From IMG/VR virus record IMGVR_UViG_3300028805_000045: a stretch of 64,000 bases of DNA; one strand, given 5' to 3'. This document shows, piece by piece, positions 3,258-64,000 of this stretch. Made by a program: the position numbers and the translations under genes. How positions within the stretch are numbered: position 1 is the stretch's first letter; each line of letters starts with the position of its first letter. Origin of the DNA: a virus. Taxonomy: Duplodnaviria; Heunggongvirae; Uroviricota; Caudoviricetes. The notes beneath the pieces were generated by a model. That model made no database searches and was not told where the DNA came from. It saw only the letters and a program-made list of their open reading frames with translations.

Positions 3258-3584
3258 CTATAATTTAGGAATAACATCAATTCTATAGCCTTGTACTGCT
3301 TTTTGTTCTCCCTTAATTCTATCTTCGATATTTTGAACAGCAATCATTGTACCGACTAATAATTTAGCCCAGTCATTGCGACTTAATGAAGTAAGTTCAA
3401 AATTTTCTTCTCTAATTCGATCATATAGATTAGCATAATCATCTCTCATGATTGATGCTGTTTTTTCTCCATTTTCGTCATGTTTTTCATGATTTAATTC
3501 AATTACGCGTTCTGCTAAAAGTTCATTTGTATGCGCAATCTCTTTAAATAATTTTTCATATCCAGTATTCATATTTATCCTCAC
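3258..3584 (-). CDS. Hypothetical protein
   Basis: 108-aa ORF whose start overlaps the topoisomerase subunit A stop (ATGA). Confidence 0.5.
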   Translation of the reverse strand: MRINMNTGYEKLFKEIAHTNELLAERVIELNHEKHDENGEKTASIMRDDYANLYDRIREENFELTSLSRNDWAKLLVGTMIAVQNIEDRIKGEQKAVQGYRIDVIPKL

Positions 3585-5959
3585 ATAATTTCAATTGTAG
3601 TATTTGAATCACGAGCATCTATAATACGTACTCCGGCAGTTACTCTATTTTGAACGGGAATATCCGCTGTTTCTAGCAAAACTGCTTTATTATTAGCTGA
3701 TACAAAAATATGTTCTTGAGTAATAGGAACCGCATAAACAACAGCAAGATTTTCATCTTTTAGAGCCATAACTTGCGGTCCTTTAACTGCGCGAGAGGTT
3801 TCATTAAAATCTTCAATAGCAGTAATTTTTCCGCGGCCAGAAGAAGTAATAGTTAAAATACCTTTATATTCTATATTAGTTTTAATTAAAGTGGCAGATT
3901 GAATTTTTTCTTCGTTCATAAGTTTAATAGCTTTTACGCCACGAGTAGCTCTACCAGTTTCAGATAATTCTTCTAATTTATAAAAATTATAATTACCGGA
4001 GGAACTAGCAATAAAAATTCTATCTTCATTATCCATTGATAGATAAACGCCAATTAAGGTATCATTTTCTTCAAGTTTTACTGCGGCAACGCCCTTGCGC
4101 GCGCGAGAACCATATTCTTTAATAAGTGACTTTTTAATATAACCGTTTTTGCTTACAGTTACTAAATACTTATAGGCACTAAATGTAGTTGAATCAATTA
4201 ATAAAATAACTCTTTCATTATCTTGTGGCATAATTAATTCATAAATAGAATAATCTTTTCCATATTCTAAATCACTTAGAGAAAAATTATACATTCTTCC
4301 TTTATTTGTAAAGGCAGATACAGTGCCTAAATTAGTAGTATATAAAGTATTAATTAAATTAGCATTTTTCGGAGGCTTAATATTAACTCCTTTTCGTCCT
4401 CGCTTTGCTCCTTGTAAATCTTCTTTTTTAATTAAACGAATTACATTATTATCGAATAACATAATTCCTAATTCTTCTTCTTGAATTTCTTGAGCTTCTT
4501 CTTCAGAAGGTTCAGCAATATTCATAATTTTTGTTCTACGCGTATCCCCATATTTATTAGCAACTTCTTGTAAAATTTTAATTAGTTCATTATCCAAAGC
4601 CGTACTATCATTTAATAAGTGACGATACTCTTCAATTTTTCTATTAAGTTCTTCCCGTTCGTCATTTAATTTAATAGCGTCAATTTTAGTTAATGAGGCA
4701 AGTTTCATAGCTAAAATTGCTTTAGTTTGCTCTTCATTAAAGCCAAATCGACTAATTAATTTTTGAGAAGCTTCAGAAGGGTTTTGAGAACCACGAATAA
4801 TTGCTACAACTTCATCAATAGAAGCTGCCGCCATTATAAGCCCTTCGACTACATTTAATCGCGCGAGAGCTTTATCTAAATCAAATTTAATAATGTTACG
4901 TTCACAAGAACGAATATGATTAATATAAGCATCACACGCTTCACGCCAGCCAAATACTTTTGGAAAACGGCCTTGATCCAACAAAATCATATTTACTGAA
5001 TACCAATTCTCTAATGAAGTATCTTTATAGAGTTTGGTAATCATTTTCTTTGGATTAGCTCCCTTAGAAAGATAAATACGAATATCTGCAATTTTCTTTG
5101 TATGGTCAGTTACTTTTTCAATACCATATGAAGGGTTTTCTTCCGTCAAAGCCGCTAATTGGTCGATAACAGTATTTGTAAAAACACCATAAGGTAATTC
5201 AGTTGCCTGAATCATATTCTGATCTGGATAATAGGTTAATTTCGCTTGCAGGCGAATTGATTCACCTTTTCCATAACGAAGACTTTCTTTTACTGCTTTT
5301 GCGTTTGTAATTGTGCCGCCACAAGCAAAATCAGGAGCACAATAAATATCATTGAAATCTACTGCTGGATTTTGAATAATTTTTATAAGTGCTTCATTTA
5401 CTTCTTTTAAATTAAATTGAGGAACAGAAGTAGCCATTGCTACTGCAATACCTGAACAACCATTTACAATGTTCCAAAATCCAATTGATGGAAATACAGA
5501 AGGAATAAGTTCTGTATCGTCGTAGTTTGAATACCATTGCTCTCCAATAGCATTTTTCTTTAGTCCAGTAAAGAAAAAATCTGCTATTTCACCTGCACGC
5601 ATTTCTACATAACGAGGCGCCGCATGGCTATCAGGAGAAGAAGGATTACCAAAACTACCCTGAACATCTTCTACTGGATAACGATAAGACCAGGGACGAG
5701 CGGCACGAATAAATGTATCGTACATTGCTACATCGCCATGAACATATGATTGCGCCATTGCTGCGGCGACGGATTTCTGTGCCTTCTGCATCTTATCTTT
5801 ATGGGTTAATTTATTAGTGAATTGAGCATACAGTCCTTGACGCAAGCCGATTTTGAGCATATCCCGAACATCGGGAATGGCACGTTCCTGCGCCACAGAT
5901 GCTCCATAGGTCAAGAAAGCATTTTCAATTTGTTTTTGAAAGTCGGTTTCGTAAATCAA
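3581..5959 (-). CDS. Type II DNA topoisomerase subunit A (GyrA/ParC/T4 gp52-like)
   Basis: 792 aa. Carries the GyrA N-terminal signature HGDVAMYDT...RYPVEDVQGSFGN...AAPRYVEMR, including the catalytic Tyr region. Confidence 0.85.
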   Translation of the reverse strand: MIYETDFQKQIENAFLTYGASVAQERAIPDVRDMLKIGLRQGLYAQFTNKLTHKDKMQKAQKSVAAAMAQSYVHGDVAMYDTFIRAARPWSYRYPVEDVQGSFGNPSSPDSHAAPRYVEMRAGEIADFFFTGLKKNAIGEQWYSNYDDTELIPSVFPSIGFWNIVNGCSGIAVAMATSVPQFNLKEVNEALIKIIQNPAVDFNDIYCAPDFACGGTITNAKAVKESLRYGKGESIRLQAKLTYYPDQNMIQATELPYGVFTNTVIDQLAALTEENPSYGIEKVTDHTKKIADIRIYLSKGANPKKMITKLYKDTSLENWYSVNMILLDQGRFPKVFGWREACDAYINHIRSCERNIIKFDLDKALARLNVVEGLIMAAASIDEVVAIIRGSQNPSEASQKLISRFGFNEEQTKAILAMKLASLTKIDAIKLNDEREELNRKIEEYRHLLNDSTALDNELIKILQEVANKYGDTRRTKIMNIAEPSEEEAQEIQEEELGIMLFDNNVIRLIKKEDLQGAKRGRKGVNIKPPKNANLINTLYTTNLGTVSAFTNKGRMYNFSLSDLEYGKDYSIYELIMPQDNERVILLIDSTTFSAYKYLVTVSKNGYIKKSLIKEYGSRARKGVAAVKLEENDTLIGVYLSMDNEDRIFIASSSGNYNFYKLEELSETGRATRGVKAIKLMNEEKIQSATLIKTNIEYKGILTITSSGRGKITAIEDFNETSRAVKGPQVMALKDENLAVVYAVPITQEHIFVSANNKAVLLETADIPVQNRVTAGVRIIDARDSNTTIEIM

Positions 5960-6011
5960 ATTGTTTTCACTTCCTTTTCTTATTTATTGTTAAATATATT
6001 ATTTAAGATTC

Positions 6012-6203
6012 TTAACTGTTTATTTCATTATAAAGTTCTGCTTGTTCTTTTGCCCATTCTTCATAAGGGATCTTTGCTTTTAATAAAGCAATTTCAAGAG
6101 CATATTCTTCATCTAAATAACATCCTTCTCTATTTATAGTTGATAGTCCATCATATGTACAATAAGTAGATTTATTATTTGAACAATTTTTACAATACAT
6201 CAT
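6012..6203 (-). CDS. Small Zn-ribbon protein
   Basis: 63 aa with CKNC...CTY...C motifs; lies downstream of a promoter cassette. Confidence 0.4.
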   Translation of the reverse strand: MMYCKNCSNNKSTYCTYDGLSTINREGCYLDEEYALEIALLKAKIPYEEWAKEQAELYNEINS

Positions 6204-6217
6204 TTTAGTTTTTATCC

Positions 6218-6262
6218 TTTTCTTATTTATTATATTATAACATAAATTTATGTAAAAGTCAA
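6218..6262 (-). promoter_or_regulatory. Promoter cassette copy
   Basis: TTGACT...TATAAT plus the ATATGTAAGAA-type leader. Confidence 0.5.
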
Positions 6263-7200
6263 TTAATTAACCATTTATCAGACATAATATCTTCTAAGCA
6301 TAATTTCTTTAATTGCGTATAAGGGATACGTTTTAATGGGATATTATGTTCTATTGCATAATTTGTTTTTATATCATCACATAATTTAGTATATTCAAAA
6401 TCATTTTTCCAACCAGGATTAAAATGCTGTTTCCCATCATATTCTAACAAAAATTCATTATTTATATAAAAATCATATCGTAAAACCCAATTTTTAGGAG
6501 ATTTACAATCTAAATATTTATGTTGAAATATAAAAGGAATATTGTTTTCATTTAAAATTTTTTTAATCAACTCTTCTCCTTTTGAAGAGGAAAAACAGCC
6601 ACATGAAATTGTGTCTCCTTGTAATAGACATTCAGAAGTTACTGTACATTTATTACCACAATCACATTGACAAAGCCATAAACGCTTACCATGTTTATTA
6701 GAACCAATATGCTCTAATGCAATTAATTTTCCAAATCGTTGGCCCGTTAAATCTTTTCCATTAATCATAGCTGCTTTTTCTTTTTGTAAACATCCACAAC
6801 TTTGTACATGCCCAGATTTTAATTGAAATGATGTAGCATATGCAATTTGTCCGCAATCACATAAACATTTCCATAGAATTTTTTTATCACTATTTCTACT
6901 TCCATCATCTTCTAATACAAGTAAACGATTAAATTTTTGTCCTTCTAAATGGGTATGATTATTCTTTTTTAATTGTGATAATTTATAACAACCACAAGAA
7001 ATTGTGTGTCCTTGACGAATAGATAATCCACTGACACTAAAAATTTTTCCACAATCACATTGACATTTCCAATATGCATGAGGAGCTGTAATGTGATGTA
7101 TTTTTTTATATTCTTTATCTTCTTCTATCACTGTTATATGGCTTTCTGGAACACCATGTTCTTTCATAACCCAACCAGTCATATCTATTTTTTTACCCAT
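6259..7200 (-). CDS. Multi-Zn-finger nuclease-like protein (homing-endonuclease-like, possible PD-(D/E)XK C-terminal domain)
   Basis: 313 aa with three CQCDCG...SCGC zinc-finger repeats. The C-terminal RYDFYI...LLEYDGKQH resembles Vsr/DUF559-type nuclease cores. Sits between the two topoisomerase subunit genes. Confidence 0.45.
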   Translation of the reverse strand: MGKKIDMTGWVMKEHGVPESHITVIEEDKEYKKIHHITAPHAYWKCQCDCGKIFSVSGLSIRQGHTISCGCYKLSQLKKNNHTHLEGQKFNRLLVLEDDGSRNSDKKILWKCLCDCGQIAYATSFQLKSGHVQSCGCLQKEKAAMINGKDLTGQRFGKLIALEHIGSNKHGKRLWLCQCDCGNKCTVTSECLLQGDTISCGCFSSSKGEELIKKILNENNIPFIFQHKYLDCKSPKNWVLRYDFYINNEFLLEYDGKQHFNPGWKNDFEYTKLCDDIKTNYAIEHNIPLKRIPYTQLKKLCLEDIMSDKWLIN

Positions 7201-7207
7201 AGTAACC

Positions 7208-7504
7208 TCAACTATTTAAAATACTAAAATTAATATTTCTCATATTGAAAAATTGATTATTTACTTTTCCAAGAGGCCAATAAATCCAGTCATCTTTCTT
7301 TTTATAAAATCCATGAACATAATTAGACTGATCTATAATTATATATAACTGTTGTTCTGGAAAACAATAATATTCTTTTATCTTATCTCCACAGGCAGTT
7401 TTATCATATAAATCTAAAATTTCTAAGATGTAGTTTGGATTATTTTTATTTTTATTAAGAAAAAATGAATATTCATCTAAATCAAACATTTTTATTTCAT
7501 CCAT
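7208..7504 (-). CDS. Hypothetical protein
   Basis: 98-aa ORF. Confidence 0.4.
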   Translation of the reverse strand: MDEIKMFDLDEYSFFLNKNKNNPNYILEILDLYDKTACGDKIKEYYCFPEQQLYIIIDQSNYVHGFYKKKDDWIYWPLGKVNNQFFNMRNINFSILNS

Positions 7505-9368
7505 TCAAAATACTAAAATCCACATTCTTAAATAAGAACTCACGACGGGGTTCAACATCTTCACCCATTAACATTTTAAGGCTTTCAGCTGCGGCTTCCA
7601 TATCTTTAATAGTAAGTACTTCAAGATGACGTTCAGTAGGATGAAGCATTGAATTTTCCATATCTTCCGCTGTCATTTCACCCAAGCCTTTTTGGCGCCC
7701 TTGCTCCCAATTAGGATATTTTTTACGAAGTTCAGCGAGTTCATTATCATCATAAGCAAATACCCGTTTGTCTCCTTTTGTTAAACGATATAGAGGAGCG
7801 CGTAGCCAACATAGTCTTCCTTCTTTAATAAAGTCTGGCATAAGTACATAAAACATTGTAGCAATTAAGCACATAATGTTATAGCCATCCACGTCAGCAT
7901 CAACTGCAATAGCAACTTTACCATAATTCAATTTCTTGCTGTTATAACGATTCTGAATACCACATCCAAGAGCAAGAATAATATCTGATACTTCCTGATT
8001 TTCAAGACATTCATCAAGTGGATGCTTTAATAGATTTTTAACTTTGCCACGTACAGCATAAAGGGCTTCTGTATTTACATTGCGTGCAGGCATTAGACCG
8101 CCAAGAGCTGAATTACCTTCACAAATAATTAACATTGAATCTTGTCCGTGTTTTTCGCAATCCTTAAACTTATCAGAGGAAGTAATTTTTTGCTTCTTAT
8201 GTTCTATTTCTTTTTTCTCAAAATTAAGAACACCTTGACGTGCTTTCTCGGCTGCAGCTTCAGCTTTCTTATCGCGCGTAAGTAAAGCAATAATTTTATC
8301 AAAATCTTCTCTATTTTTTACAATCCAGTCTTTAATTGCTTCAGTAAAAACAGTTTGAGTATATCCACGAAGCTCTTGATTTTGAATTTTATCTTTTACC
8401 TGATTTTGATATATTGGATGTGGATGTTTAATATTGATAATAGTTACTAACCCTTTACGAATCATATCACTATCAAATGATTCTTTAGACTGGTCATTAA
8501 TAGTGCGCGTAAAAGCAGTTTTCATACCGGTAATTGGAGTACCACCACCGCTATTTAACGCACCATTAGAAAATACATAACTCTTTTCTTTCCCCGCAGT
8601 CCATTGTGCAAAAACTTCAATATCAACATTATCTTCAAAATGTTTACTAGCATAAATATAATTTTTATGTAATGGATTTGAAATTTTCGCTGCGGCAAAA
8701 TCTTTTAAACCATTTTTTGATAAATAAGTAAAACGTTCATCATTACTACCATCAATTAGCATAAAACTAACATTAGGAATAAAATAACTAGTTAACTCTA
8801 ATTCATCTTTTATTCTATTTATATCAAAAGCAGGCGTGGCATCATCAATATGAAAAATATTTTTATCAGGCTTAAAATATATTGTAGTTCCAGTTTCTTT
8901 TGTTTTTCTTACTTGCTTAGCCACTGGATTTTGTGGAATACCGTCTATAAATGTAAGTTCCCATTCTGCTCCATCACGTCGTGTCCATACTGTAAATTGC
9001 TCTGAACAGACGCATACAGTGGAAGCACCAACACCGTGCATACCACGAACACGCGAATAATTTTTAGTATCAAATTTTCCAGAGCTGTGGGCAGAGGTAT
9101 ATAGCTCAATTAGAACTTCTTCGCAATCCTTATTGGGACCATGAGGAACGCCAGCACCTTCGTCAGAAATTGTAATTTCATTGGGCATTACAAGTACTTC
9201 AATTTTATTACCGCGTCCCATAATAGCTTCATCACAGGAATTATTTAAAATTTCAAGAAAACAATTAAAAACCGCATCTTGCCCGTCTGCGCCAATGTAC
9301 ATTCCCGGCGTTGTTCTGGCCGCAGTTCTAAAGTCTCTTATTTGAATTGAATTAGCATCATAAGCCAC
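7497..9368 (-). CDS. Type II DNA topoisomerase subunit B (GyrB/T4 gp39-like ATPase plus Toprim)
   Basis: 623 aa. Has the GHKL ATPase motif EILNNSCDEA, a GKFD motif and the Toprim motif ICEGNSALGG. Confidence 0.85.
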   Translation of the reverse strand: MAYDANSIQIRDFRTAARTTPGMYIGADGQDAVFNCFLEILNNSCDEAIMGRGNKIEVLVMPNEITISDEGAGVPHGPNKDCEEVLIELYTSAHSSGKFDTKNYSRVRGMHGVGASTVCVCSEQFTVWTRRDGAEWELTFIDGIPQNPVAKQVRKTKETGTTIYFKPDKNIFHIDDATPAFDINRIKDELELTSYFIPNVSFMLIDGSNDERFTYLSKNGLKDFAAAKISNPLHKNYIYASKHFEDNVDIEVFAQWTAGKEKSYVFSNGALNSGGGTPITGMKTAFTRTINDQSKESFDSDMIRKGLVTIINIKHPHPIYQNQVKDKIQNQELRGYTQTVFTEAIKDWIVKNREDFDKIIALLTRDKKAEAAAEKARQGVLNFEKKEIEHKKQKITSSDKFKDCEKHGQDSMLIICEGNSALGGLMPARNVNTEALYAVRGKVKNLLKHPLDECLENQEVSDIILALGCGIQNRYNSKKLNYGKVAIAVDADVDGYNIMCLIATMFYVLMPDFIKEGRLCWLRAPLYRLTKGDKRVFAYDDNELAELRKKYPNWEQGRQKGLGEMTAEDMENSMLHPTERHLEVLTIKDMEAAAESLKMLMGEDVEPRREFLFKNVDFSILNG

Positions 9369-52650: not shown

Positions 52651-52656
52651 CTCTTA

Positions 52657-52733: not shown

Positions 52734-52773
52734 CATATAAAAGGGTTGATTACGGCTCAACCCAAGCCATCAA

Positions 52774-53189: not shown

Positions 53190-53234
53190 CTTTCTAACAA
53201 TATTATTATATCATAAAAAATTAAAAAAGTCAAA
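53190..53234 (-). promoter_or_regulatory. Promoter cassette copy
   Basis: Motif match. Confidence 0.5.
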
Positions 53235-53239
53235 TATTT

Positions 53240-53636
53240 ATTTCAACCCATCCATAAACACCTGGTTCCCATACATTATTTGCGATAGTATTTTCCCAAG
53301 TTTTTCCATTATGAGTTACTTTATCTCCAATCTAATATGGATTTGTGCTATCTGGCTATTCCCATTCAGGAATTACATTTTCATCTGGAATTAGTACTTT
53401 AGCCCATAGGCTTGGAGCAGAAAGTGGGTCCCAATTTGGTTGTGGTATATGTGTCTATAAACATTTGTATAAAATACCATTATATCGAACTCGTGTATCT
53501 TTTTCATAATTATCTTCATTTGCGTGCCACTCTGGAAATAATTGTACGGCTTCAATTGCATCAGCATCATCTAAAGAAATAGCGGCTTTTTCAATATAAG
53601 GGCGCAATTTACGAGCAAGTTCTATTAAGGTCATAG
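53240..53636 (-). CDS. Hypothetical protein with 3 in-frame TAG codons
   Basis: Manual ORF MTLIELARKLRPYIEKAAISLDDADA...KCL-TAG-THIPQPNWDPL... that overlaps the upstream gene by ATGA. Confidence 0.35.
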
Positions 53637-53637
53637 G

Positions 53638-53904
53638 TTACTCCACCCCCAATAAAATTTTTGCCGCGGTGAGTTCTTCTTGTAAATTAGCAATAGCTTT
53701 AGAATTTTCTTCATTCATTAATTGAATGTATTCGTCTTTAGTATATCCAGTATAATCATATTCAAACCCGTTAATTACATGTTCATCTATTTCTTTTTCA
53801 AAAGGAATAATGTTTTTTGCAGTAAAAACCATAGAATCAGTTATTTCAATTTCTTGAGGATATTCAAATGATTGAATTTTACCATAATTAATCATACTAA
53901 TCAC
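53638..53904 (-). CDS. Hypothetical protein
   Basis: 88-aa ORF. Confidence 0.4.
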   Translation of the reverse strand: MISMINYGKIQSFEYPQEIEITDSMVFTAKNIIPFEKEIDEHVINGFEYDYTGYTKDEYIQLMNEENSKAIANLQEELTAAKILLGVE

Positions 53905-53957
53905 CCCTCAAATTTTGCTTTCCATTTATTTATATTTGCAGTATAAATATCATTTTT

Positions 53958-55946
53958 CTAAGGAATATACATTAAATTCGCGCCAAAGGAATATTTAGAA
54001 TATGTAATTTCTCGATCGCATCCATAATAAAATGGCCCTGCGCTATCTTCACTTTCCCAAGTTCCGCCAATCACTACACAATTAGTTCCATTTAAATTTG
54101 CTTTAGACCAAAAGTTATCTCCTACTGGCAAAGCACTATTGGCAGAAGCACATTCAGCTGGCATAAATACCCAATCATACTTATCATTGCCATATCCCAT
54201 TGCAGAAACCCATGAATGCATAGTAGGAAGTTTAAATCCTACACTTTCATAATTATTATCTACAGTAGTATAGTTATAATTAAAGTTTTTACAAATATAT
54301 GGATATCCGCCTTCATCATTGCCTTGTCCATAAATATTGATTCCGCCAATAAAATGCCAAATGTTACCCCAAGGATTTTCTATGCCACGATAAGATATTG
54401 CTCTTTTTCCAGAAGTATCATAAGAAGTATATTCACCATTTATTTCAGAAATGGTTGTTTGGGCTACTCCGGTATTATTGCCAAGTGATGCGGTTGAACC
54501 TGTCAATGAAGCACAATTTGTATTATAAACAGCTGGAATATTTATTATTCCAGACTCTATTCCATTTTGAATATTTAATTGTCCAAATTCTACCATTTCT
54601 AACATTTGATTTGCGCTTTCAACTGCCATATTTGTTATATGCCATCCATTTCCTCGATTTTTTGCTAATTGTTCAGCATTAATTATTGTAAGACTACTAG
54701 TAGAATTACTACTAACTGGTTTAGCATTAGCAACTGATGAAAGCTTATCATTAGCAAAATCAATAGTTATAGTAGAAGTAGTATTATAATTATTATTGGA
54801 AAAATCATAAACACTTCCTTGATAAGCTGGTAATAATACATAATCAACTTCAACATTGTCTTCATTTATAAATAAAGGATGTACTTTAAAACCCGATTTT
54901 TTTTGAGTAGATAAAATTATATTTTCTTTTTTAATAATATTACCACTTTCAAGTCCGGTCATATTAATTGGGATTCTCTAGTAATAAAATTTTGGTTGAT
55001 ATACCATAACTTGTCCATTACTTCCATCATCAGCATAATTAGAATCTCCATAAAATGCGGTTATTGTTCCATCGTCTGTTACGTTACAACGCATACGTCC
55101 GCCATACATGGAATAAGAATCGAAATTAGCTCCTGCTGTTTTATTTTCTGCGTCCTATATTCTAGTAAAGGATTTATTTACATAGTCTATCTATAATCCT
55201 ATTGTTCCACTTATATTATATGTACCAGTATTAATAAGTGCCGCAATAATATCCTATTCTGAGGTTGAACCTGCAATTGGTTTACCATCTGGGCCAATAA
55301 TTATAATATTACCTGCGTCATCAATTGAGAAACTTCCAATTGTTCCGCCGCCAGTGGAAGGGATTTGTGCAATTTTATTTTCAAGTTCAGTTTTTATTGA
55401 AGTTATATATTCTTTGATAGCTTTTTGTGTCATTGAACCATCTTCATTGTTTCCTGAACTAGTATAATTTTTTTCTATATCATATGAAGTAGAGCTACCA
55501 TTTTTAGTAATGGTCGCACGTTTAATTTTGGCATTACTTGTATTAGCATCTGATATAGTTACATTTGCGGCAGTATTTTGAATTGCCGTAGATAATTCAG
55601 TATAATTGTCTGCCATTGTAGTTTCTAAAGAATCAATATCTGTCTGTACTGGAACTAATGCTTCTTGAATTTTATCTTCAACAATTTCATTAGTAAGAGC
55701 CGCGGCGGCAGACGTAAAATCTGTTTTTAAATTATCGAAGTCATCTGCAATTGCTTCTGCCCTTGTCTAAGCTTCTTGTGCGGCTTCATTTGCGGCTTGA
55801 GCGGCAGCATTAGCATCCTAAGCATCTTGTAGAATTGCAGCCACTTCATTGGCTTGCGCCATAGCAGCTTTAGCTTGTCGTACAAGTGTTTCGGTTTCTC
55901 CTGTAAATGACTTTTTTGAGGCTAAAATAATATCAATAATATCCAT
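53958..55946 (-). CDS. Tail fibre protein (N-terminal coiled coil, Ser/Thr/Asn/Gly-rich C-terminus) with about 8 in-frame TAG codons
   Basis: Hand-traced single frame from MDIIDIILASKK (SD AAGGAGG) joins ORFs 55254..55616 and 53958..54962 across TAGs. The stop is TAA. Confidence 0.5.
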
Positions 55947-55960
55947 TATTCAATACCTCC

Positions 55961-56173
55961 TTATACTCGTTTCCAAGTCTTATTGCTTTTTCCTAAATAA
56001 AACGTTAATTCATTGTTATTATCTTCATCTTCTAATACAACGCAGACTGAACCTAAAGTAATATATCTAGGATCAATTCGTTTTTTATCTTCTGCGGTGT
56101 CACAAAAATGTGTATATGTTATAACATTATCTTGTGAACCGCGCTGTGTCATAATATTTGCCATATCTATCAC
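55961..56173 (-). CDS. Hypothetical protein
   Basis: 70-aa ORF. Confidence 0.4.
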   Translation of the reverse strand: MIDMANIMTQRGSQDNVITYTHFCDTAEDKKRIDPRYITLGSVCVVLEDEDNNNELTFYLGKSNKTWKRV

Positions 56174-56212
56174 CTCAAAAGAAAAGGAGCGAAATTAATC
56201 GCTCCTTATCAT

Positions 56213-56557
56213 TTATTCTTCACTTTGTTCAGGTTCTACTCTTTTATTAATTTTATTTATGTTAATATAAGCAGTAGAATTATTATTATTGTATATATTA
56301 GAATTAAGACTGGTGATGTATAAATCTTCTGCGAAGGTTAAAGTAACTATTTCTTCATCTTGTCCGTTTAGAATTTTTAGACTTTCAATACGGACATTTT
56401 CAAAGAATTTTGCGCTTGATAGTGAGCTTAAAGAAACGTTTAATCCAATTGATTCAGAATGTTGAGAATAATTATCAATTCCCATTGTTGCTGAATAATT
56501 CATTTCATTAGCTTCAATAAGATGGGTGTCGTCGTTGTTTAAAATAATTTTAATCAT
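56213..56557 (-). CDS. Hypothetical protein (tail-associated by context)
   Basis: 114-aa ORF behind the SD AGGAGG. Confidence 0.45.
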   Translation of the reverse strand: MIKIILNNDDTHLIEANEMNYSATMGIDNYSQHSESIGLNVSLSSLSSAKFFENVRIESLKILNGQDEEIVTLTFAEDLYITSLNSNIYNNNNSTAYININKINKRVEPEQSEE

Positions 56558-56570
56558 AATAAATTCCTCC

Positions 56571-57805
56571 TATTATTGTGGTTTATATATTGCTCTGACA
56601 TTGAAAGCAGAGTAACTGTTTGCATTAGAAGCACTTCTAGTGCCACTACACCAGCAACCACCAAAAATATTTCCACTATACCAATATGGCGTTCTATGAC
56701 TCCAAATAGTTTGTCCTTCAATTTTAGTATACTGAAAACCTGAATAAGTTTGATTAGTATATTCATATGGGGTTGGATCACTATAATAACCTACATTCGA
56801 ACTATAAGGAAAAAATATATAATCATTTTGTGCAGATGCAGATGTATTTATTATATTATAATGATATGTTACTTGTCCAGGAATGATGTCATTTGGAATC
56901 GTATGCTATTCAAGAATTGTATATCCTTGAAGTTCACTGGTACTAGCGGGAATGGTATTAGTAATAGCTTGCTTAAAAGAATGATTTGTTGATTTTTTAT
57001 CTATATAAAAATAAGAGTGCGCAAGGCAAGTACTAAATGGAGAAGTAAATAGTCCTTCAATACCATAATAATATAAAATATTATTAGCTTTAAAACAAGA
57101 TAAAAATCCGTTTTGTACAGCACTTTGGTTAGTACATCCAGTTGTATACTGAGTAATATAGCTATCTGTACTATTACTATTATTCCATTTATCAGTTCCT
57201 TGTTCTATTAAAAAAAGTAATTGTAAAGCACTATATACTTCTATAGACATAACTTCATAATTATTGCTAAGTCCAGTAATTGCATCATTAATTGTTTTTC
57301 CATTAGTATAATTGTAGTTATCAACTGTATTATACTTTATTTGTAATCCACTACTTGATTTATTATTACTGTTTAAATAATATTTAGAAATATATACTCC
57401 TGAACCAGGATGTAATTTAAATCCAGGATATTTTGAAGAAGGAGGCTTTCTATTTGCTATGTACATATAGTAATCCTAACCTTCTTTTATTGCTTTATAA
57501 TAAAACTTTGGTAAATAAACATAAAGATTGTTATTTGCATTATCAAGGTCATCTCTACTATTAACTCTAGTAATATTATTCTATTCATTAATATTATAAG
57601 TTAGCATTTTTTTCCATGGAGAAAAGTTTTTATATATAGTTGTATCATCAGCGTCACCGGCATTAACATAATTATTTGGATCCTAATTATTAGTATTGGA
57701 AGAATTGGGTAAAAGTTTAAAATAATTACTACTACTAGTATTCCATTTTATTCCAAATATACTTAATTCTTCTGTACTTAAAGTTGAAAATAAATTTAAA
57801 ATCAT
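56571..57805 (-). CDS. Tail-associated protein with about 4 in-frame TAG codons
   Basis: Hand-traced frame from MILNLFSTLST joins ORF 56906..57466 and ends ...AIYKPQ followed by TAA. Confidence 0.45.
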
Positions 57806-59572
57806 TAACTTACTTGAACTCCTTTTATCTAAACTATTGTTATGGGAATATTCTCAGTAGGAGGTTCTCCAAATGCTGTTGCAACAATAGTTGTTCCATT
57901 TGATCGTGTAAATTCTAACCCTGCAGAAACAATAGCGGTATGAACGCCTTCAGTAGCAGTACCTTGCGGGCCAATTATTAAAGTGTCAGTTGCGTCACTA
58001 TTAATTGTAATATTCTATGTATATATACCGTTAGTAGCATTCCAACCACTACTAGTTAATGTTTTATTATAACTTTTTATATTTGCAGCCTCTAAATCTT
58101 TACTTGCATGGCCTGTAACGTTTGCTTCAATTCCACCAGGAACTTTCATTAAACCAGTTGAAGGATTAAGAGTTGGAACTTTGGTGATATCATCCCATAC
58201 AACACCATATATAGTATTAGTAGAGCTGCCATCCGTTTCAGTAGTTCCTATACCGCCCGTGGTTGTTATTTTTGTACGACTTACTAATAATGGATAATCC
58301 CCATTATATCCACTCTTTTGCCTATAAACACGAAGTCCATAATTAATACCTGAATCATACTATGTAATTAGACGCCAGCATCCATGTGCTGTTGCACGAG
58401 CATTAGAAGCGATTATACTAGTACCACTTACTGCGCCATATACACTACATGTTGCGGCACTATCATATCTTAATGTAATAGACATGTTGTTATTAAACCA
58501 GTTCTATAATCTTGAGCCATTACTATGAATGATTGGATGATATGTAGTACCATTGTCTAATGATAACCAAGTACCATAGTCATGTGCGGCACTAGGGATT
58601 TTAACAGTAACTATATCTCCATCTATTGGTTCTATACCAGCATTATATTTCCAGGATGCAGGACGATAACGTGGGTTTGCTGAGGCACCTAAGTCTGATG
58701 CAGTAACACCAGTACCATCAGTTATTGTCGGAGAATTAATAGCTTTTGCAGAAAGTTGAATCGCGCCATTTAGATACTAAATATATGCTTTTTCTGTTGT
58801 TATATTTGTATTAAAAGCCAACTTACCAGTTAAACCAATTGCGCCCGCGGCGTATAATTTATAAGTATTCTATGTTGCATTTGTATCGCCGAGCTATAAA
58901 TTATTGTACTAATTAAAACGAGCAATTTCAGCACTCGCTTGCTAAATGACTATACTCGCACCACTCGCCCTATTTAAAAATAGTGTGCTACCGCTACTAA
59001 TTGTTAATGTCTTTCCCGCAGTATCTGGAGAAAGAGTAATATCAGCTCCAACGGCGCCAGTAACTTTTAAGCCGCGAGAAGCCATTGCACCTGTACCATT
59101 ACCCACAATAACACAATCAGCTGTAAAAGTTGTCGCCCCAGTGCCACCGCGTCCAACTCCTAATGTACCAGAAGTTAGCTTACTTGTTGATAAATTAGGA
59201 ATGTCATCTGCAGTTAAACTACGAAATGTTGGGGCGGCATTCGAGTCAGAGGTTCCTGCTGGCCCAGCGAGCACTGTATTATGGGTCTAAGCTACAAATG
59301 AAATAGTTGTATTTAATGAAGAGGTTTGAGCAGTATTTACACTAGACTAAAGTGGAGAGGCGGCCTGTACTCGTACACTAGTTACACCAGAATTACCCCA
59401 AAATATATTAGTGCCATTTGTTTTTAAAACCTATCCATTAGTTCCCGCCCCATAAACTGCTTCAGTATCAGAAGTAGAAGCAATTATTGTCTAAATTCGT
59501 GCTGATTCTGAAAGAATAGTATTAGTTACCTAAAGATTACCAGTAACCAATGTATCTTTTAACTAAGCCATA
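57805..59572 (-). CDS. Tail fibre protein with about 13 in-frame TAG codons
   Basis: Hand-traced frame from MA-TAG-LKDTLVTGNL joins ORF 58942..59274 and ends in TAA, overlapping the next start (TAATG). Confidence 0.45.
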
Positions 59573-59583
59573 TATTCACCTCC

Positions 59584-61647
59584 TTACATTTCTATAAAAT
59601 CTTTGGCGATTATTTGACCGTCGCGTACAAAAGATACTTTTTGATTTATCCATGAGTTTGAATCTATAATTCGATTATAAAATTGTCCTTTTCGAGTTAT
59701 TTTAACTGGAGAAGGGGTCATTAATGGGGTGGAATTAATTGAAAATACTTTATTTTGATTATTAGTATCATTAGGTAAATCAGAATAACGATATGATATT
59801 ACAATCATTCCATAAGCAGCATTTTTAGCTTCATATGGTATTACTAATGTTTTTTCAGTAGCCTCACAAATTTTAGGAGAAGTAATACTACTCTATGTAA
59901 GAGTATCATTAAGTATTGACAATGATTGCAATGAAATTGTTTTTATTAAATTATCATTGTTATCATAAATTTCTAAATAACTTTGATAATAATAGTTTTT
60001 AACAAAATGAGTAGTGCTAACTTGACGATAATAGTTACCTGTCCTACTCCATTTTGAACTGGTGTATTGAGCATCTATAGGTATAATTGAAATAGCAGGA
60101 GAATGTATAATATATTCATTTGCTCCCTGAAAATAAAATTTATTATATTTTTTAGTATATTCTACGACAGATAAATACTTAGTTTTTTGACTTGGAGCAA
60201 TAGTGCCAACGACGGAATATTCTGTTACGATACCACTAGAACTAGTAATATCAGCAGTATCATTTACTTGATAAGATTGATTAAATTGAGTTCCTTGAGT
60301 ATTTTCATTCTATTCTATAAATTCAACCGCATGAATATTATTCAAATTATCTATTCTCATACTATTATTATACAACAATTTTATGTCATTGTCAAGTAAT
60401 GGAGTACAATAAATTCTGACATCACTTATATTGCCCACTTGATCAGTACTCTGTGGTTCATTTTGACTTGCCTTTGCTTCTCCTGAAATTACTAAAGGAG
60501 TATTATTTGCATATTTAATTGTATCTAATGAAAAAGTAACTTCCGTACTAGTTTTTTCTATTCCATCTATATAAATTTTAACGGAAGTTCCATCAAAGAC
60601 TCCAGTAAACATATGCCAACCATTTGTTAAACTAGTATGATCTATTGCGCTACGCGCTATTTTGTAACCACCTATATTTGTTAAATATACTGGGAATTGT
60701 ATTCCATATGTAGTGCCGCCATATTCAAAATTCCATCCTCCGCCTTGTGTACAAGAAATGGGATTTCCCCATGTAGTCCATTTTGTCCATAAGTTTACTG
60801 TCATCTATTCTTTAGGTAGCCAGTCTCCACTCTATCTTGGAGAAATTGCATACTATTCATTAGTAAAATTTGTAGAAGTTGAATATCGTGCGGTATTAGT
60901 ATCTGTTGTGCCGCCGATAATATTTAAGTAATTCCCATATCCACTTGCGTCAGAAACTCGCCCGTCCATAATAGATTCTTTAGTAAAAGTCCAATGAGCA
61001 ATTAATCCTTGTGATATTTCTTTTACTTCAAGTGGACTTAGACAATGATCATAAATGCGGACGTCATTTAATGAACAAGCTGGTTTATAGTTGTTATTTG
61101 TTCCCGGTACATCCCAATTAAATATAGATATTTTTGTAGCTATTGCATGATTTGTATAACTCTAAGTTAATTCTGATTTTCCGTCTACCCATAACTAGAA
61201 TTCTTTTTTAGTATTATCATATGTTAAAGCTAAATGATGCCATTCATTTTTTATATTAGTAGTACCATAATAAGTATAATATGTACGAGAGCTTCCATTT
61301 CCTGTACTGCAACATATACGATAATCATCCGTAGAAATCTATTTGACATTAATGCCAAATCCAGATTTATTTGCTGTAGAATGATTGCTGACTAATCCGT
61401 TAGCAGTATTCCCAACCGTTTCTGTAACTTTTGCCCAGCAACAAATAGATAAATCCTTATCGAGTAAAACAGTAGCATCTGAAGAAATATCTCCTGCAGT
61501 TTTTATATTGGGTCTACAATAACAGTTTCCAATTTTCCCTTCATTATTAATTATAATAGTAGAAGAATTAGAATTAATAAATTGTAAATTTGAACACCCT
61601 AAATTCCTTAAATCCCCATTTAAAGGAAGCCAAACCTGTAAACTCAT
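59584..61647 (-). CDS. Tail fibre or receptor-binding protein with a lectin/LamG-like domain and about 8 in-frame TAG codons
   Basis: Start MSLQVWLPLNGDL behind the SD AGGAGG. Joins ORFs 61339..61647, 60310..60804 and 59584..59808 across TAGs. Confidence 0.45.
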
Positions 61648-61717
61648 TTATTTTCCTCCTTTTACTCATATATATTAAAAATATGAGAGATATAAAATAT
61701 ATCTCTCATATTTATTA

Positions 61718-64000
61718 CTAAAATATAAAATCTAAACAGTTATCTGTTTCATTATATTCTATTGATACATGTTCATTTACTATATGAGTCTCTGCATGTA
61801 AAGTATGTGCATATAAATTTCCTTGTCCCATAATATAAGCGTTAGTAGTACCCCCAGCAGTAACTGCGACGTTAGCACTTGTAGGTTCATTCTGAGAGCC
61901 CATCAAATAATATTGAGTTGTAGTATCAGAAATTAATTTATAATCTACTTTTGTATTAGTATTAATCCAAGGAACGTTTACAAATGGCACTCCATTTATA
62001 TCTGTCTCAATTGCATAATAACGTCCCGGAGTGCTAGTTCTACTTTGAATTGCAGGAGGAGTGGTTGCGTAAGTACTATGAGAAGCTGTAATTTTTCCAG
62101 TTGTAGAATATAACGGATTAATTCCACCGAGTGTTGTTGAAGAGGCTTCATTTAGAGTTACATTACCTGATGATACTGATAATCCAGTTCCAAAACTTGC
62201 TACACCTAAAGCTGAAGCAGTAGCAGTAGGTAAATCTTCTGCTGTCGGTTTCGCCATTGCTTTAACCTTAACTGCAGAGCCATTTATCGTTAATATGGTT
62301 GCTTCCGCGCCCCATGATAAGGTCGGGACAGTGTTTGGAATTGTTGTATTCCCGGTATCTAATATGACTCTCCAGTCTTTTGCACTATTATTCACAACTG
62401 AACGGTGTAATAAATTTTCATTATTAGGAGACATAAAAATATCATGGAAGTATGTTGAACTCCAATAAACACGTATTGTCTAGATATTCGCTTTTGTTGT
62501 ATGAGAAGTATAATCCGCTGGATAACTCCATAATTTATAACTATTACTGGATCCCTCATAAGCATTCCCATCCGCAGAACCAACCGTTGGCTAACCCGAA
62601 TAATACTATAAACCACTTGTATTTTCTGTTGCGCTAGACGCGAGTAAATTTGCTTTAGTCGCTGTTGTAGCATTACCACTAAATGTTGTAGCAACAACAG
62701 TACCATTATCTTTAATAGTGAATAAATCTGTATATGAAGTACCACCATTAGTAGACTACTAGAATGTAAATACAGCAGTATTCGTTGTACTATCATCTGT
62801 GATTGTTATACGTTGTCTATATGTATCACTATTCCAATCTAAAATATTTGCGGTTGGAAATATTAAATTACCATTTATTGTTGTCGCGCCGTTTAAACGT
62901 GAAGCTCCTTTAACATCCAATACATAATTTGTTAAATCTGCATCACTATATTTGGAATTTAAACCTAAACGACTAAAGTATCCTGGAATGCTTGTGCCAC
63001 TAGAGGAAAGAAAGTAAAACCCATCAATATCTTGTTTTGCATAGATTCTGTCAACATTTCTTAAATATCCATTGTCATCTATACTTATTGAACTGGTTTG
63101 AATAGTTCTTCCGTTTGTCCCATTAAATCTCACAATTGCATTATTAGTAGAAGTTGTAGAAGAACTAGTCACATATCCTGAGTTATTATTAAACTCATTT
63201 AAATCAGTTGGGCGTCCAGATATATTTTCCCATGCTACACTTGTAGCACTACCAGCAGAAGTAGCATAAGGTACAGTAAAAGCACTACTAGTTTTCCCAC
63301 CGGCAGTAATAGTTACCTAATTGGCATTACTGGTGCTTGCCTAGATAGATGGATTATTTGCTAAATTGGTCGCGGTAGTAGCTGTATCAGCATTACCTTT
63401 AAAAGCTGCAGCGTATACATTCCCTTCAACTTCTAGCCATGCGGGAGAAGCACTAGTTCCACCTATAAGTTTTAACCCCGCGGGGTAACGATAACTATCC
63501 AAATCAGTATAAATTAAATGTACTGGTTGTGTTCCTGTATTTTCCTAAAATGTAATACGTGGATTTGTACTTGCTGCAGTCATTGTAGCTGTTGTTTCTC
63601 CGCCCAATACAATATTATGGAATGGGTTAGCAGTAGTACCAAGAGCAACAGTTTGATTACCTTTAATATCTCCAGTCATCGTTCCACCTGATAGAGGAAG
63701 CGCATACGAAGAATAATTGGTCGCGTTTAGAACAATACTGCCATTAATTTTTACATGATTATCATCTTTTGCTCTAAAACTTAGCCCCCAATAATTTGAT
63801 AAACAAATCCATTGACGTGTAACGGTAGAACCCCCACTAGTTTCCTCCACATCAAAGCCACCAAGTCCATACCAGCTAGCTCCATCAGAATTGTTGTCAT
63901 TATCTGAAGTAGTCCATTGTAATTTTCTCGCGGCTGAAGAATAAATTTTACCAGTCATATTGCCGCCTGCAAGTGGCAAGTAATCACCTAATGCTGCCTA
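61718..64000 (-). CDS. Tail fibre protein with a repeated LPLSGGTMTG motif; 5' end upstream of the window; multiple in-frame TAG codons
   Basis: ORFs 63545..63979, 62759..63172 and 61718..62434 join in one frame across TAGs. LPLAGGNMTG and LPLSGGTMTG are the conserved phage tail-fibre motif. Confidence 0.5.

What the first reader, a model, noticed from the sequence alone, without database searches (positions are those of the whole stretch)
3581..64000. In-frame TAG density rises steeply from replication genes to tail-fibre genes
The two topoisomerase genes (about 4.2 kb) contain no TAG. Middle genes such as Sak4, PhoH, ClpP, the permease and the MTase carry one to three each. The tail-fibre cluster at 53.9-64 kb carries roughly 8-13 per gene, and the 23253..25298 gene carries about 12. 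This fits the proposal that recoded stop codons gate translation of late or lytic genes until the suppressor tRNA accumulates. Here it can be quantified within a single contig.
Basis: partly seen in the sequence, partly recalled or inferred. Interest (0 to 1): 0.75.

Follow-up and report, generated by a model that had tools for sequence, protein, structure and literature searches.

The report
Amber codons mark late phage genes
This is part of a large gut or rumen phage that reads the stop codon TAG as glutamine, keeping TAG out of its early genes and using it freely in tail genes, a pattern already described in other phages.

Summary
With TAG read as sense, both topoisomerase II genes have 0 TAG. 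Sak4, PhoH, ClpP, the permease and the MTase have 1-3. The five large tail/virion genes have 4-15, and 23253-25298 has 13.

The pattern is a mosaic of gene classes, not a positional gradient. This block holds the tRNA array, including the tRNA(CUA) suppressor.

TAG encodes Gln: relatives have CAA or CAG opposite the window's TAGs. No gene ends in TAG.

The partition survives normalising for Gln content. It is conserved in recoded relatives and is unrelated to protein conservation. It also tracks 24 near-consensus sigma-70 promoters, which are absent from the TAG-rich genes. The TAG-rich genes are not pseudogenes.

In late genes TAG simply replaces CAG at the genome's neutral C-to-T bias. The signal is therefore purging from early genes, not enrichment in late ones.

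This matches published descriptions of code-15 phages, so it is a new member of a known kind.

Two side observations may be new. TAGs in sparsely recoded genes cluster near the 5' end. The suppressor tRNA carries an extra arm resembling a Gln anticodon loop.

The parts
43958..44047 (-). Suppressor tRNA(CUA), 90 nt. It has Gln-like acceptor features: A1 opposite C72 (mismatch), G2-C71, G3-C70, G10 and G73. An extra hairpin in the variable region has the loop UUCUGAG.
   Evidence: ARAGORN, Rfam tRNA at 52 bits, fold, comparison with relatives.
25336..53118 (-). TAG-free block of 36 ORFs (5200 codons, 165 Gln codons, 0 TAG). It contains an SPFH-like protein, RNA ligase, nucleotidyltransferase, Ro-like RNA-binding protein, phosphoesterase, polynucleotide kinase, PTH2, about 33 tRNAs and ROOL RNA.
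   Evidence: Orthologs in recoded relatives are also TAG-free.
53230..64000 (-). TAG-rich tail/virion cluster with 47 TAG in 3527 codons (36% of Gln codons). It includes a tail protein (phrog_5302), a Laminin_G_3 virion protein and a CBM_5_12 protein. The last gene runs off the window.
   Evidence: It has no in-frame TAA or TGA (chance P = 1e-16 to 1e-30).
23253..25298 (-). Isolated TAG-rich gene of unknown function: 13 TAG, 42% of Gln codons. It is preceded by an intrinsic terminator (25320-25337) and has no sigma-70-like promoter.
   Evidence: It has 33 homologs, including full-length ones on contigs of about 180-195 kb. No family or fold assignment was obtained.
3581..9302 (-). Two topoisomerase II subunit genes (3581-5860 and 7497-9302), separated mainly by an HNH homing endonuclease gene (6259-7200). 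All have 0 TAG.
   Evidence: In recoded relatives, 0/29 and 1/38 orthologs carry TAG.
13526..22288 (-). Sparsely recoded genes with 0-3 TAG each (14 TAG in class C, 13.5-23.2 kb; 16% of Gln codons). They include the permease, nucleoside deoxyribosyltransferase, PhoH and ClpP-like protease. TAG-free genes are interleaved: DNA ligase, dNMP kinase and RNase H.
   Evidence: The TAGs are 5'-biased.
523..3572 (-). Sak4-like annealing protein (2 TAG, one inside the Walker A motif), an SSB-like gene and two small genes (1 TAG each).
53205..53233 (-). Near-consensus sigma-70 promoter (TTGACT-17-TATAAT with an extended -10). It lies exactly at the boundary between the tail cluster and the TAG-free block. 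It is one of 24 such sites, all on the minus strand and intergenic, between 2.5 and 53.2 kb.
44758..44786 (-). Sigma-70-like promoter upstream of tRNA-Arg, tRNA-Tyr and the suppressor tRNA.
23217..23245 (-). Sigma-70-like promoter immediately downstream of the TAG-rich gene 23253-25298. It starts a unit whose first gene (22292-23200) has 0 TAG.

Best explanation
The window comes from a phage that uses genetic code 15 (TAG = Gln). It belongs to a family of roughly 165-190 kb genomes found in rumen and gut metagenomes.

Decoding TAG depends on a phage tRNA(CUA), which must accumulate and outcompete host release factor 1. Genes that must be translated before or without that tRNA are kept free of TAG by purifying selection. 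These are the tRNA and RNA-repair block that contains the suppressor itself, topoisomerase II, DNA ligase, RNase H and dNMP kinase. Most of them sit directly behind host-type sigma-70 promoters.

Virion genes and one unknown gene lack such promoters. In them TAG behaves as an ordinary Gln codon that has almost completely replaced CAG.

An intermediate set tolerates 1-3 TAGs, preferentially near the 5' end. This is what one expects if these genes are translated while suppression is still incomplete.

Full-length yield falls roughly as (suppression efficiency) to the power of the TAG count. Genes with 7-15 TAGs therefore cannot be made until suppression is efficient.

Shown here: the counts, TAG = Gln, selection against TAG in one gene set, conservation across relatives, and the promoter association. 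Inferred: expression timing, competition with RF1, and any adaptive gating role.
For: - TAG = Gln. Opposite the window's TAGs, relatives have CAA 184, CAG 180 and TAG 48 of about 1150 aligned cells. Two conserved Gln columns in 53230-53634 are Q in 33/43 and 35/44 relatives and TAG in 7 and 5. TAG in relatives falls opposite window Q about 5-10 times more often than opposite any other residue.
- No gene ends in TAG: 57 end in TAA and 27 in TGA.
- Class differences are all significant after Gln normalisation.
- Block E has 0/53 TAG among TAG+CAG, although the same C/T synonymous choice in Leu codons is 0.68-0.71 T. Late genes give 0.84-0.93, against 0.87-1.0 for Leu.
- In recoded relatives, topo II orthologs carry TAG in 0/29 and 1/38 cases and the RNA ligase, PNK and Ro-like genes in 0. 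PhoH orthologs carry it in 92% and the tail protein in 92%.
- There are 24 near-consensus sigma-70 promoters, all on the minus strand and intergenic. None lies upstream of a TAG-rich gene, and the promoter-proximal gene is TAG-free in 18 of 20 units that contain an ORF.
- The suppressor tRNA lies in the TAG-free block behind such a promoter.
- 5' bias of TAG in sparsely recoded genes: mean relative position 0.27 against 0.565 for CAA/CAG (p = 4e-5). In 14 of 15 genes the mean is below 0.5 (p = 1e-3). The bias is replicated at independent columns in relatives (0.30 against 0.50, p = 4e-6). It is absent in late genes.
- The published model is the same.
Against: - No expression data exist. 'Early' rests on promoter resemblance and gene function only.
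- Some genes directly behind consensus promoters carry TAG (2577-2936, 1559-2470, Sak4), and TAG-bearing genes share promoter-defined units with TAG-free genes. Transcription class and TAG class therefore do not coincide cleanly.
- No release factor or aminoacyl-tRNA synthetase gene was seen in the window.
- Late-gene TAG use does not exceed neutral expectation, except perhaps in 57805-59571 (68%). Gating may therefore be a by-product rather than a selected function.
- The function of the outlier gene 23253-25298 is unknown, so it cannot be used as a test.
Confidence: 0.7

Rival explanations
1. Actively selected gate. TAG codons are positively selected in late and lysis-related genes, and placed 5' in middle genes, specifically to block premature synthesis.
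For: - Gene 57805-59571 uses TAG for 15 of 22 Gln codons, and the tail cluster is heterogeneous (chi-square p = 0.008).
- The 5' placement of TAG in sparsely recoded genes would abort translation cheaply.
- Borges et al. report a few preferentially recoded lysis and tail families.
Against: - Overall, TAG/(TAG+CAG) in late genes equals the neutral C-to-T synonymous bias measured on Leu codons.
- TAG is only 36-42% of Gln codons in late genes.
- TAG positions in late genes are uniform.
- No lysis genes were identified in the window.
- The 5' bias can also be explained by avoiding harmful near-full-length truncations, or by the general enrichment of rare codons at 5' ends.
Confidence: 0.2
2. Mosaic ancestry. 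The TAG-free blocks were acquired recently from standard-code phages or hosts and have not yet accumulated TAG.
For: Block 25.3-53.1 kb has higher G+C and a different synonymous usage. CAG is 32% of CAA+CAG there, against about 10% in the tail cluster. Leu TTR share is 0.68-0.71, against 0.83-1.0 in classes B, C, D and F.
Against: - Orthologs of these genes are present and TAG-free in many recoded relatives at 35-89% identity, so TAG absence is long-standing.
- TAG-free and TAG-bearing genes alternate within the same promoter-defined units.
- TAG share is unrelated to protein divergence (rho = -0.06, p = 0.73).
Confidence: 0.05
3. Artefact or decay. The TAG-rich ORFs are pseudogenes, or the differences merely reflect amino-acid or base composition.
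For: Under the standard code these ORFs look fragmented.
Against: - The ORFs run 410-761 codons with no TAA or TGA (chance 1e-16 to 1e-30).
- Homologs are conserved across 80 loci and 33 proteins.
- Differences persist per Gln codon.
- Out-of-frame TAG trinucleotide density is similar in all classes (9.7-15.7 per kb).
- Strong Shine-Dalgarno sites precede the called starts of most TAG-bearing genes.
Confidence: 0.02

Closest known systems
Code-15 (TAG to Gln) alternatively coded gut phages with multiple recoded modules, as described by Borges et al. (bioRxiv 10.1101/2021.08.26.457843: the Lak, Jade, Sapphire and Agate type of organisation)
   Same: Structural genes use in-frame TAG. Use in DNA-replication genes is variable or absent. 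A suppressor tRNA is encoded in standard-code-compatible sequence. Recoded modules are spread over a large genome. The proposed role is timing of late proteins.
   Different: Clade membership was not tested, because there is no terminase in the window. No RF2 or aaRS 'code-change module' was seen here. No lysis cassette was identified. Strong Shine-Dalgarno sites suggest a Firmicutes-like host (inference).
Block-wise 'dual-coded' crAss-like genomes (Mgcod preprint 10.1101/2022.06.29.495998; Yutin et al. 2021, PMC7886860, cited in it)
   Same: Early genes are compatible with both codes: they have no in-frame TAG and no TAG terminators. [quoted passage not shown]
   Different: In crAss-like phages the code switch coincides with a strand switch and there are two large blocks. 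Here every gene is on one strand. TAG-free and TAG-bearing genes interleave, down to single genes within promoter-defined units.
E. coli supE-type amber suppressor tRNA-Gln(CUA) and bacterial Gln identity rules (review PMC9976931)
   Same: The phage tRNA(CUA) has G73, a weak or A-U first pair, G2-C71, G3-C70 and G10. These match the bacterial Gln identity set.
   Different: The phage tRNA carries an additional hairpin of about 15-20 nt in the variable region. Its 7-nt loop reads YU-CUG-AR (once CU-UUG-AA), so it contains a Gln anticodon. I found no description of this in the papers searched.

Membership tests
Genetic code 15 phage (TAG reassigned to Gln) | In-frame TAG inside conserved protein-coding genes that have no other in-frame stops | tested here: met
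   86 in-frame TAGs in minus-strand ORFs of at least 55 codons. One lies inside the Walker A motif of Sak4, and others lie within PHROG or Pfam-matched regions. There is no TAA or TGA in ORFs of up to 761 codons.
Genetic code 15 phage (TAG reassigned to Gln) | TAG positions align with glutamine in homologs | tested here: met
   Of about 1150 aligned cells, CAA accounts for 184, CAG for 180 and TAG for 48. The next most frequent residue is Asn at 107. Conserved Q columns are TAG in the window.
Genetic code 15 phage (TAG reassigned to Gln) | Phage-encoded suppressor tRNA with anticodon CUA | tested here: met
   Window 43958-44047. Relatives carry 13 tRNA(CUA) genes in loci fetched independently by protein homology.
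Genetic code 15 phage (TAG reassigned to Gln) | TAG not used as a terminator | tested here: met
   None of the 59 genes without in-frame TAG ends at TAG. All called stops are TAA (57) or TGA (27). For genes with in-frame TAG this holds by construction of the gene calling.
Genetic code 15 phage (TAG reassigned to Gln) | Peptides with Gln at TAG positions (proteomic proof, as in PMC9523058) | not testable with these tools
   Needs metaproteomics of the source sample.
Early/late code partition (Borges et al.; Mgcod) | Structural genes recoded; genes for early functions free of the recoded stop | tested here: met
   Tail/virion cluster: 36% of Gln codons are TAG. Topo II, ligase, RNase H and the RNA-repair/tRNA block: 0. 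The pattern is conserved in relatives.
Early/late code partition (Borges et al.; Mgcod) | Code switch coincides with a switch of coding strand (crAss-like type) | tested here: not met
   All supported genes are on the minus strand.
Early/late code partition (Borges et al.; Mgcod) | Lysis genes preferentially recoded | tested here: inconclusive
   No endolysin, holin or spanin was recognised among the 52 proteins scanned. The TAG-rich gene 23253-25298 remains unassigned.
Early/late code partition (Borges et al.; Mgcod) | Temporal order: the suppressor is expressed before the recoded genes are translated | not testable with these tools
   Only indirect evidence: a sigma-70-like promoter lies 0.7 kb upstream of the suppressor, and none precedes a TAG-rich gene.
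Named clades of Borges et al. (Jade, Sapphire, Agate, etc.) | Placement in the large-terminase phylogeny | not tested
   No terminase gene in the window.

The most novel reading that the evidence does not exclude
Two features of this phage family may be undescribed parts of how code 15 is implemented.

(1) The amber suppressor is a tRNA-Gln-like molecule with an added variable-region hairpin. Its 7-nt loop displays a Gln anticodon (CUG, once UUG) flanked by U33-like and A37-like bases. This would be an 'anticodon decoy'. It could restore recognition by GlnRS, or by non-discriminating GluRS plus GatCAB, which the CUA anticodon has lost at position 36.

(2) Genes translated while suppression is still partial keep their few TAGs near the 5' end. 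This gives a three-tier, dose-dependent translational programme rather than a simple early/late switch.
Probability: 0.3. Interest if true: 0.75.

Novelty: new member of a known kind. Interest (0 to 1): 0.4.

Why it matters
The finding itself adds a well-quantified example to an established picture: phages that reassign TAG keep it out of early genes. It extends that picture to a large, uncultured rumen/gut phage family. In this family the partition operates gene by gene on a single strand and lines up with host-type promoters.

Its practical value is for annotation. Standard-code gene calling would shatter the tail genes.

It also bears on the open question of whether recoding is a regulatory device. 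The internal control with Leu codons suggests that the selected feature is purging of TAG from early genes, not enrichment in late genes.

If the side observations hold, they would give testable handles on how a suppressor tRNA keeps glutamine identity and on how partial suppression shapes genes. These observations are the extra Gln-anticodon-like arm on the suppressor and the 5' clustering of TAG in sparsely recoded genes.

Tried and rejected
- Megablast of 25-kb halves of the window against GenBank phages found no match.
- A scan of IMG/VR for relatives of the 23253-25298 protein found none. The large protein database gave 33 unannotated homologs. PHROG and Pfam gave no hit. The AlphaFold model was of moderate quality (pLDDT 69). 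Foldseek against PDB and BFVD gave only one unnamed viral protein and helical-bundle noise. Its function is unresolved.
- I first suspected TAG = Ser, Leu or Tyr because the suppressor has a long variable region and G73. I rejected this because conserved Gln columns align with TAG, and Ser is only 5% of aligned cells.
- Evolutionary-rate explanation: rejected (rho = -0.06).
- Base following TAG compared with that following CAA/CAG: no significant difference (p = 0.16).
- Plus-strand ORFs in the tRNA block carrying TAG: there is no protein-level support. The hits coincide with conserved RNA genes such as ROOL.
- The generic promoter and terminator scans are barely above shuffled expectation overall. 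Only the top-scoring promoter class (11-12 of 12 matches, 17-nt spacer) is informative.
- Looking up the window's own contig gave only short ENA and Logan contigs without context.


Full report
**What the window is**

The window has 33% G+C. Essentially all supported genes lie on the minus strand, so transcription runs from 64000 towards 1.

ARAGORN finds 31 tRNA genes between 38.4 and 52.7 kb. One of them is a tRNA with anticodon CUA at 43958-44047. Rfam adds two more tRNAs, a full-length ROOL RNA, a skipping-rope RNA and an abiF motif.

Treating TAG as sense raises coverage by ORFs of at least 100 codons from 0.66 to 0.82. It also joins fragments into ORFs of 410-761 codons.

PHROG and Pfam scans gave these assignments:
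- Sak4
- two topoisomerase II subunits separated by an HNH endonuclease
- a DNA methyltransferase
- a permease-like protein
- nucleoside deoxyribosyltransferase
- PhoH
- a Clp-type protease
- ATP-dependent DNA ligase
- dNMP kinase
- RNase H
- a NinI-like phosphatase
- an SPFH-like protein
- RNA ligase
- a nucleotidyltransferase
- a Ro-like RNA-binding protein
- a phosphoesterase
- polynucleotide kinase
- PTH2
- at 53.2-64 kb, a CBM_5_12 protein, a tail protein and a Laminin_G_3 virion protein

No GenBank phage is close at the DNA level. IMG/VR holds many relatives on contigs of 165-190 kb. Their sample series, together with the ROOL RNA, point to rumen or gut metagenomes; this origin is my inference and was not checked against sample metadata.

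**Checking the observation**

In-frame TAG counts per gene:

| Gene or cluster | In-frame TAG |
|---|---|
| Topoisomerase II subunit, 3581-5860 | 0 |
| Topoisomerase II subunit, 7497-9302 | 0 |
| Sak4 | 2 |
| MTase | 1 |
| Permease | 1 |
| PhoH | 2 |
| ClpP | 3 |
| 23253-25298 | 13 |
| Tail cluster genes, 53230 to 64000 | 3, 0, 7, 0, 0, 4, 15, 8, at least 10 |

The distribution is far from uniform. The Monte Carlo p-value is 1e-5 per codon and 1e-3 per Gln-type codon.

This stretch has 36 ORFs, 5200 codons and 165 CAA/CAG codons. The pattern is therefore a mosaic of classes, not a positional gradient.

TAG share of Gln codons by class:

| Class | Region | TAG share of Gln codons |
|---|---|---|
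| A | 0.5-3.6 kb | 0.13 |
| B | 3.6-13.5 kb | 0.01 |
| C | 13.5-23.2 kb | 0.16 |
| D | gene 23253-25298 | 0.42 |
| E | 25.3-53.1 kb | 0 |
| F | tail cluster, 53.2-64 kb | 0.36 |

All relevant pairwise Fisher tests are significant. Classes D and F do not differ from each other.

**Which amino acid TAG encodes**

I aligned the window's proteins by tblastn to 177 related loci. Opposite the window's TAG codons the relatives have CAA 184 times, CAG 180 times and TAG 48 times, out of about 1150 cells. Asn (107) is the next most frequent residue.

Two conserved columns of the 53230-53634 protein are Q in 33/43 and 35/44 relatives, and TAG in 7 and 5. Conversely, TAG in relatives falls opposite window Q about 5-10 times more often than opposite any other residue.

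TAG is therefore Gln, which is genetic code 15. None of the 59 genes without in-frame TAG ends in TAG; all called stops are TAA (57) or TGA (27). Even the 'early' genes are thus compatible with TAG being sense.

- *Normalisation.* The differences persist per Gln codon.
- *Base composition.* Out-of-frame TAG trinucleotides are similarly frequent in all classes (9.7-15.7 per kb).
- *Pseudogenes.* The TAG-rich ORFs contain no TAA or TGA over 410-761 codons. The off-frame density of those codons is 8.6%, so the chance probability is 1e-16 to 1e-30. Most are preceded by strong Shine-Dalgarno sites and are conserved in dozens of relatives.
- *Evolutionary rate.* Across 31 gene families in recoded relatives, TAG share is uncorrelated with protein identity (rho = -0.06, p = 0.73). 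Poorly conserved genes such as 11345-11902 and 37586-38065 are TAG-free in every ortholog.

**Conservation of the partition**

Among loci that show recoding:

| Gene family | Orthologs carrying TAG |
|---|---|
| Topoisomerase II subunits | 0/29 and 1/38 |
| DNA ligase, dNMP kinase, RNase H, phosphatase, RNA ligase, Ro-like protein, phosphoesterase, PNK | none |
| PhoH | 92% (mean 3.9 TAG) |
| Tail protein | 92% (mean 3.4 TAG) |
| Sak4 | 50% |

The family also contains members with no TAG use at all: 26 loci with more than 1500 aligned codons. This agrees with published reports that genetic code varies within clades.

**Promoters**

A k-mer search of intergenic regions revealed a strong motif, TTGACTT-N-AAAATTATGATATAAT. 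It is a near-perfect sigma-70 promoter with a 17-nt spacer and an extended -10.

There are 24 intergenic copies, all on the minus strand, between 2.5 and 53.2 kb. A 25th match inside a tail gene lacks the extended features.

How the promoters relate to the TAG classes:
- One promoter lies exactly at the boundary between the tail cluster and the TAG-free block (53205-53233).
- One lies directly after the TAG-rich gene 23253-25298 (23217-23245).
- One lies 0.7 kb upstream of the suppressor tRNA (44758-44786).
- Eleven lie between 40.5 and 52.2 kb, within the tRNA array.
- None precedes a TAG-rich gene.
- Gene 23253-25298 instead follows an intrinsic terminator.

The promoter-proximal gene is TAG-free in 18 of the 20 promoter-defined units that contain an ORF.

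The correspondence is not perfect. Sak4, the SSB-like gene and 2577-2936 carry TAG behind consensus promoters. TAG-bearing and TAG-free genes also share units. That consensus host-type promoters mark early genes is an inference from well-studied virulent phages, not a result obtained here.

**Is TAG enriched in late genes or purged from early ones?**

CAG and TAG differ by a synonymous first-position C/T change under this code. Leu codons (CTR and TTR) offer the same change as an internal control:

| Gene set | TAG/(TAG+CAG) | TTA/(TTA+CTA) | TTG/(TTG+CTG) |
|---|---|---|---|
| Late genes (classes D and F) | 0.84-0.93 | 0.87-0.92 | 1.0 |
| Block E (25.3-53.1 kb) | 0/53 | 0.68 | 0.71 |

In late genes TAG has replaced CAG to just the extent that mutation bias predicts. 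In block E the Leu ratios show that TAG is strongly selected against.

Only 57805-59571 (15 TAG of 22 Gln codons) stands out within the tail cluster (heterogeneity p = 0.008).

The evidence therefore supports dependence of TAG-bearing genes on the suppressor. It does not show that TAG was selected in late genes as a gate.

**An intermediate tier with 5'-biased TAGs**

In the 15 sparsely recoded genes of the window, the 20 TAGs have a mean relative position of 0.27. CAA/CAG codons in the same genes average 0.565 (Mann-Whitney p = 4e-5). In 14 of 15 genes the mean position is below 0.5 (p = 1e-3).

Most of the called starts have Shine-Dalgarno sites, and no SD-preceded start lies downstream of any of these TAGs. 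Several of these TAGs lie inside conserved domains.

The bias recurs in relatives at columns that are not TAG in the window. For 45 such columns the mean is 0.30, against 0.50 for Gln columns (p = 4e-6). It is absent in PhoH orthologs, which are heavily recoded, and in late genes.

The likely meaning is that, when suppression is incomplete, early termination is cheaper or safer than producing near-full-length truncations. General 5' enrichment of slowly decoded codons is an alternative explanation. I did not find this bias described in the papers I read.

**How it most likely works**

The suppressor is transcribed by host RNA polymerase from strong promoters, together with about 30 other tRNAs. 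It sits in a block that also encodes tRNA repair and quality-control functions: RNA ligase, PNK, a nucleotidyltransferase and PTH2.

As the suppressor accumulates it competes with release factor 1 at UAG. Full-length yield scales roughly as s to the power n, where s is suppression efficiency and n the number of TAGs:

| Suppression efficiency (s) | Yield, 1-3 TAGs | Yield, 7-15 TAGs |
|---|---|---|
| 0.3 | 0.3 to 0.03 | 2e-4 to 1e-8 |
| 0.95 | 0.95 to 0.86 | 0.7 to 0.46 |

This gives a graded, dose-dependent delay. The steps involving timing and RF1 competition are inferred.

**The suppressor tRNA is unusual**

It is 90 nt long. Its acceptor features match the bacterial Gln identity set: a mismatched or A-U first pair, G2-C71, G3-C70, G10 and G73 (identity rules from PMC9976931).

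It also carries an extra hairpin in the variable region. I examined loci fetched only by protein homology, which avoids ascertainment bias. There, 12 of 13 tRNA(CUA) genes are 88-95 nt long. In all 12 the extra loop contains a Gln anticodon followed by A:
- YUCUGAR in nine
- CUCUGAC in one
- GGCUGAC in one
- CUUUGAA in one

A motif scan of IMG/VR returned 80 further stretches on contigs up to 434 kb, yielding 48 unique tRNAs. The two closing base pairs of the loop are formed in 48/48. The second pair shows C-G to G-C covariation. Most host loci gain coding coverage under code 15.

A plausible, untested reading is that the arm mimics the tRNA-Gln anticodon loop. It could compensate for the loss of G36 in the CUA anticodon. 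Literature searches found no description of this.

**Comparison with what is known, and verdict**

The defining features of a code-15 phage with an early/late code partition are met. The strand-switch feature of crAss-like genomes is not. Lysis genes were not found. Clade placement was not tested.

The finding is a new member of a known kind. It is a clean, quantified and family-wide example, but not a surprise to specialists.

Interest for the finding as stated is moderate. The 5' bias and the extra-arm suppressor are the parts worth following up.

Noticed in passing
window 43958-44047 (-); also L001 21728-21817, L013 12794-12886, L018 14731-14818, L024 13059-13147, L030 8123-8211, L034 12686-12773; L178-L255: The amber suppressor tRNAs of this family are 88-95 nt long. 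They carry an extra variable-region hairpin whose 7-nt loop holds a Gln anticodon (CUG, once UUG) followed by A. The acceptor stem has Gln-like identity elements. This may be an anticodon decoy for GlnRS or for GluRS plus GatCAB. It is widespread in IMG/VR: at least 80 stretches and 48 unique sequences.
   Followed up: partly
window 523-22288, sparsely recoded genes; relatives L098-L177: In genes with only 1-3 TAGs, the TAGs cluster in the 5' third (mean relative position 0.27, against 0.565 for CAA/CAG). The bias recurs at independent columns in relatives. It is absent in heavily recoded genes.
   Followed up: partly
window 45678-46258 (-): Full-length ROOL RNA (Rfam RF03087, 323 bits) inside the tRNA array, 33 nt downstream of a sigma-70-like promoter at 46291-46319.
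   Followed up: no
window 50568-50668 (-) and 33879-35423 (-): A sub-threshold YrlA (Y RNA-like) match (35 bits, E = 2e-4) overlaps the sigma-70-like promoter at 50545-50573. The same block encodes a Ro-like RNA-binding protein (phrog_850, E = 2e-133). Together they suggest a phage Ro/Y-RNA pair.
   Followed up: no
window 42836-42903 (-) and 52614-52650 (-): Skipping-rope RNA (54 bits) and an abiF RNA motif (44 bits) lie among the tRNA genes.
   Followed up: no
window about 44060-44185 (-): A tRNA-Tyr(GUA)-like gene has an insertion of about 47 nt between positions 31 and 32 of the anticodon arm. Neither ARAGORN nor Rfam calls it. It lies between tRNA-Tyr and the suppressor. It could carry an intron-like insertion or be a pseudogene. 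ARAGORN also reports an unusually long tRNA-His (88 nt, 43252-43339).
   Followed up: no
window 6259-7200 (-): An HNH homing-endonuclease gene sits between the two topoisomerase II subunit genes. It has 0 TAG here but carries TAG in 45% of orthologs in recoded relatives. This resembles the recoded intron endonuclease noted by Borges et al.
   Followed up: partly
window 2.5-53.2 kb, e.g. 51766-51776, 51539-51549, 41632-41642: Of the 24 near-identical sigma-70-like promoters, six are followed 3 nt after the -10 box by the conserved sequence TATGTAAGAAA (the seventh copy lies 3 nt after a 10/12 promoter-like site at 33815-33843). This may be a shared initial transcribed region or leader. Several promoters have no ORF downstream (52202, 47730, 44786) and probably drive RNA genes.
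   Followed up: partly
window 25336-53118: The TAG-free block has a distinct synonymous codon usage. CAG is 32% of CAA+CAG, against about 10% in the tail cluster. The Leu TTR share is 0.68-0.71, against 0.83-1.0 in classes B, C, D and F. G+C is also higher. This could reflect adaptation of early genes to the host tRNA pool or a different history.
   Followed up: no
window 23253-25298 (-): A conserved 681-aa, largely helical protein with 13 TAGs has no family, fold or name in any library. Full-length homologs occur on contigs of about 180-195 kb. In the window it sits between an SPFH-like gene and a phosphatase gene, directly after a terminator.
   Followed up: yes
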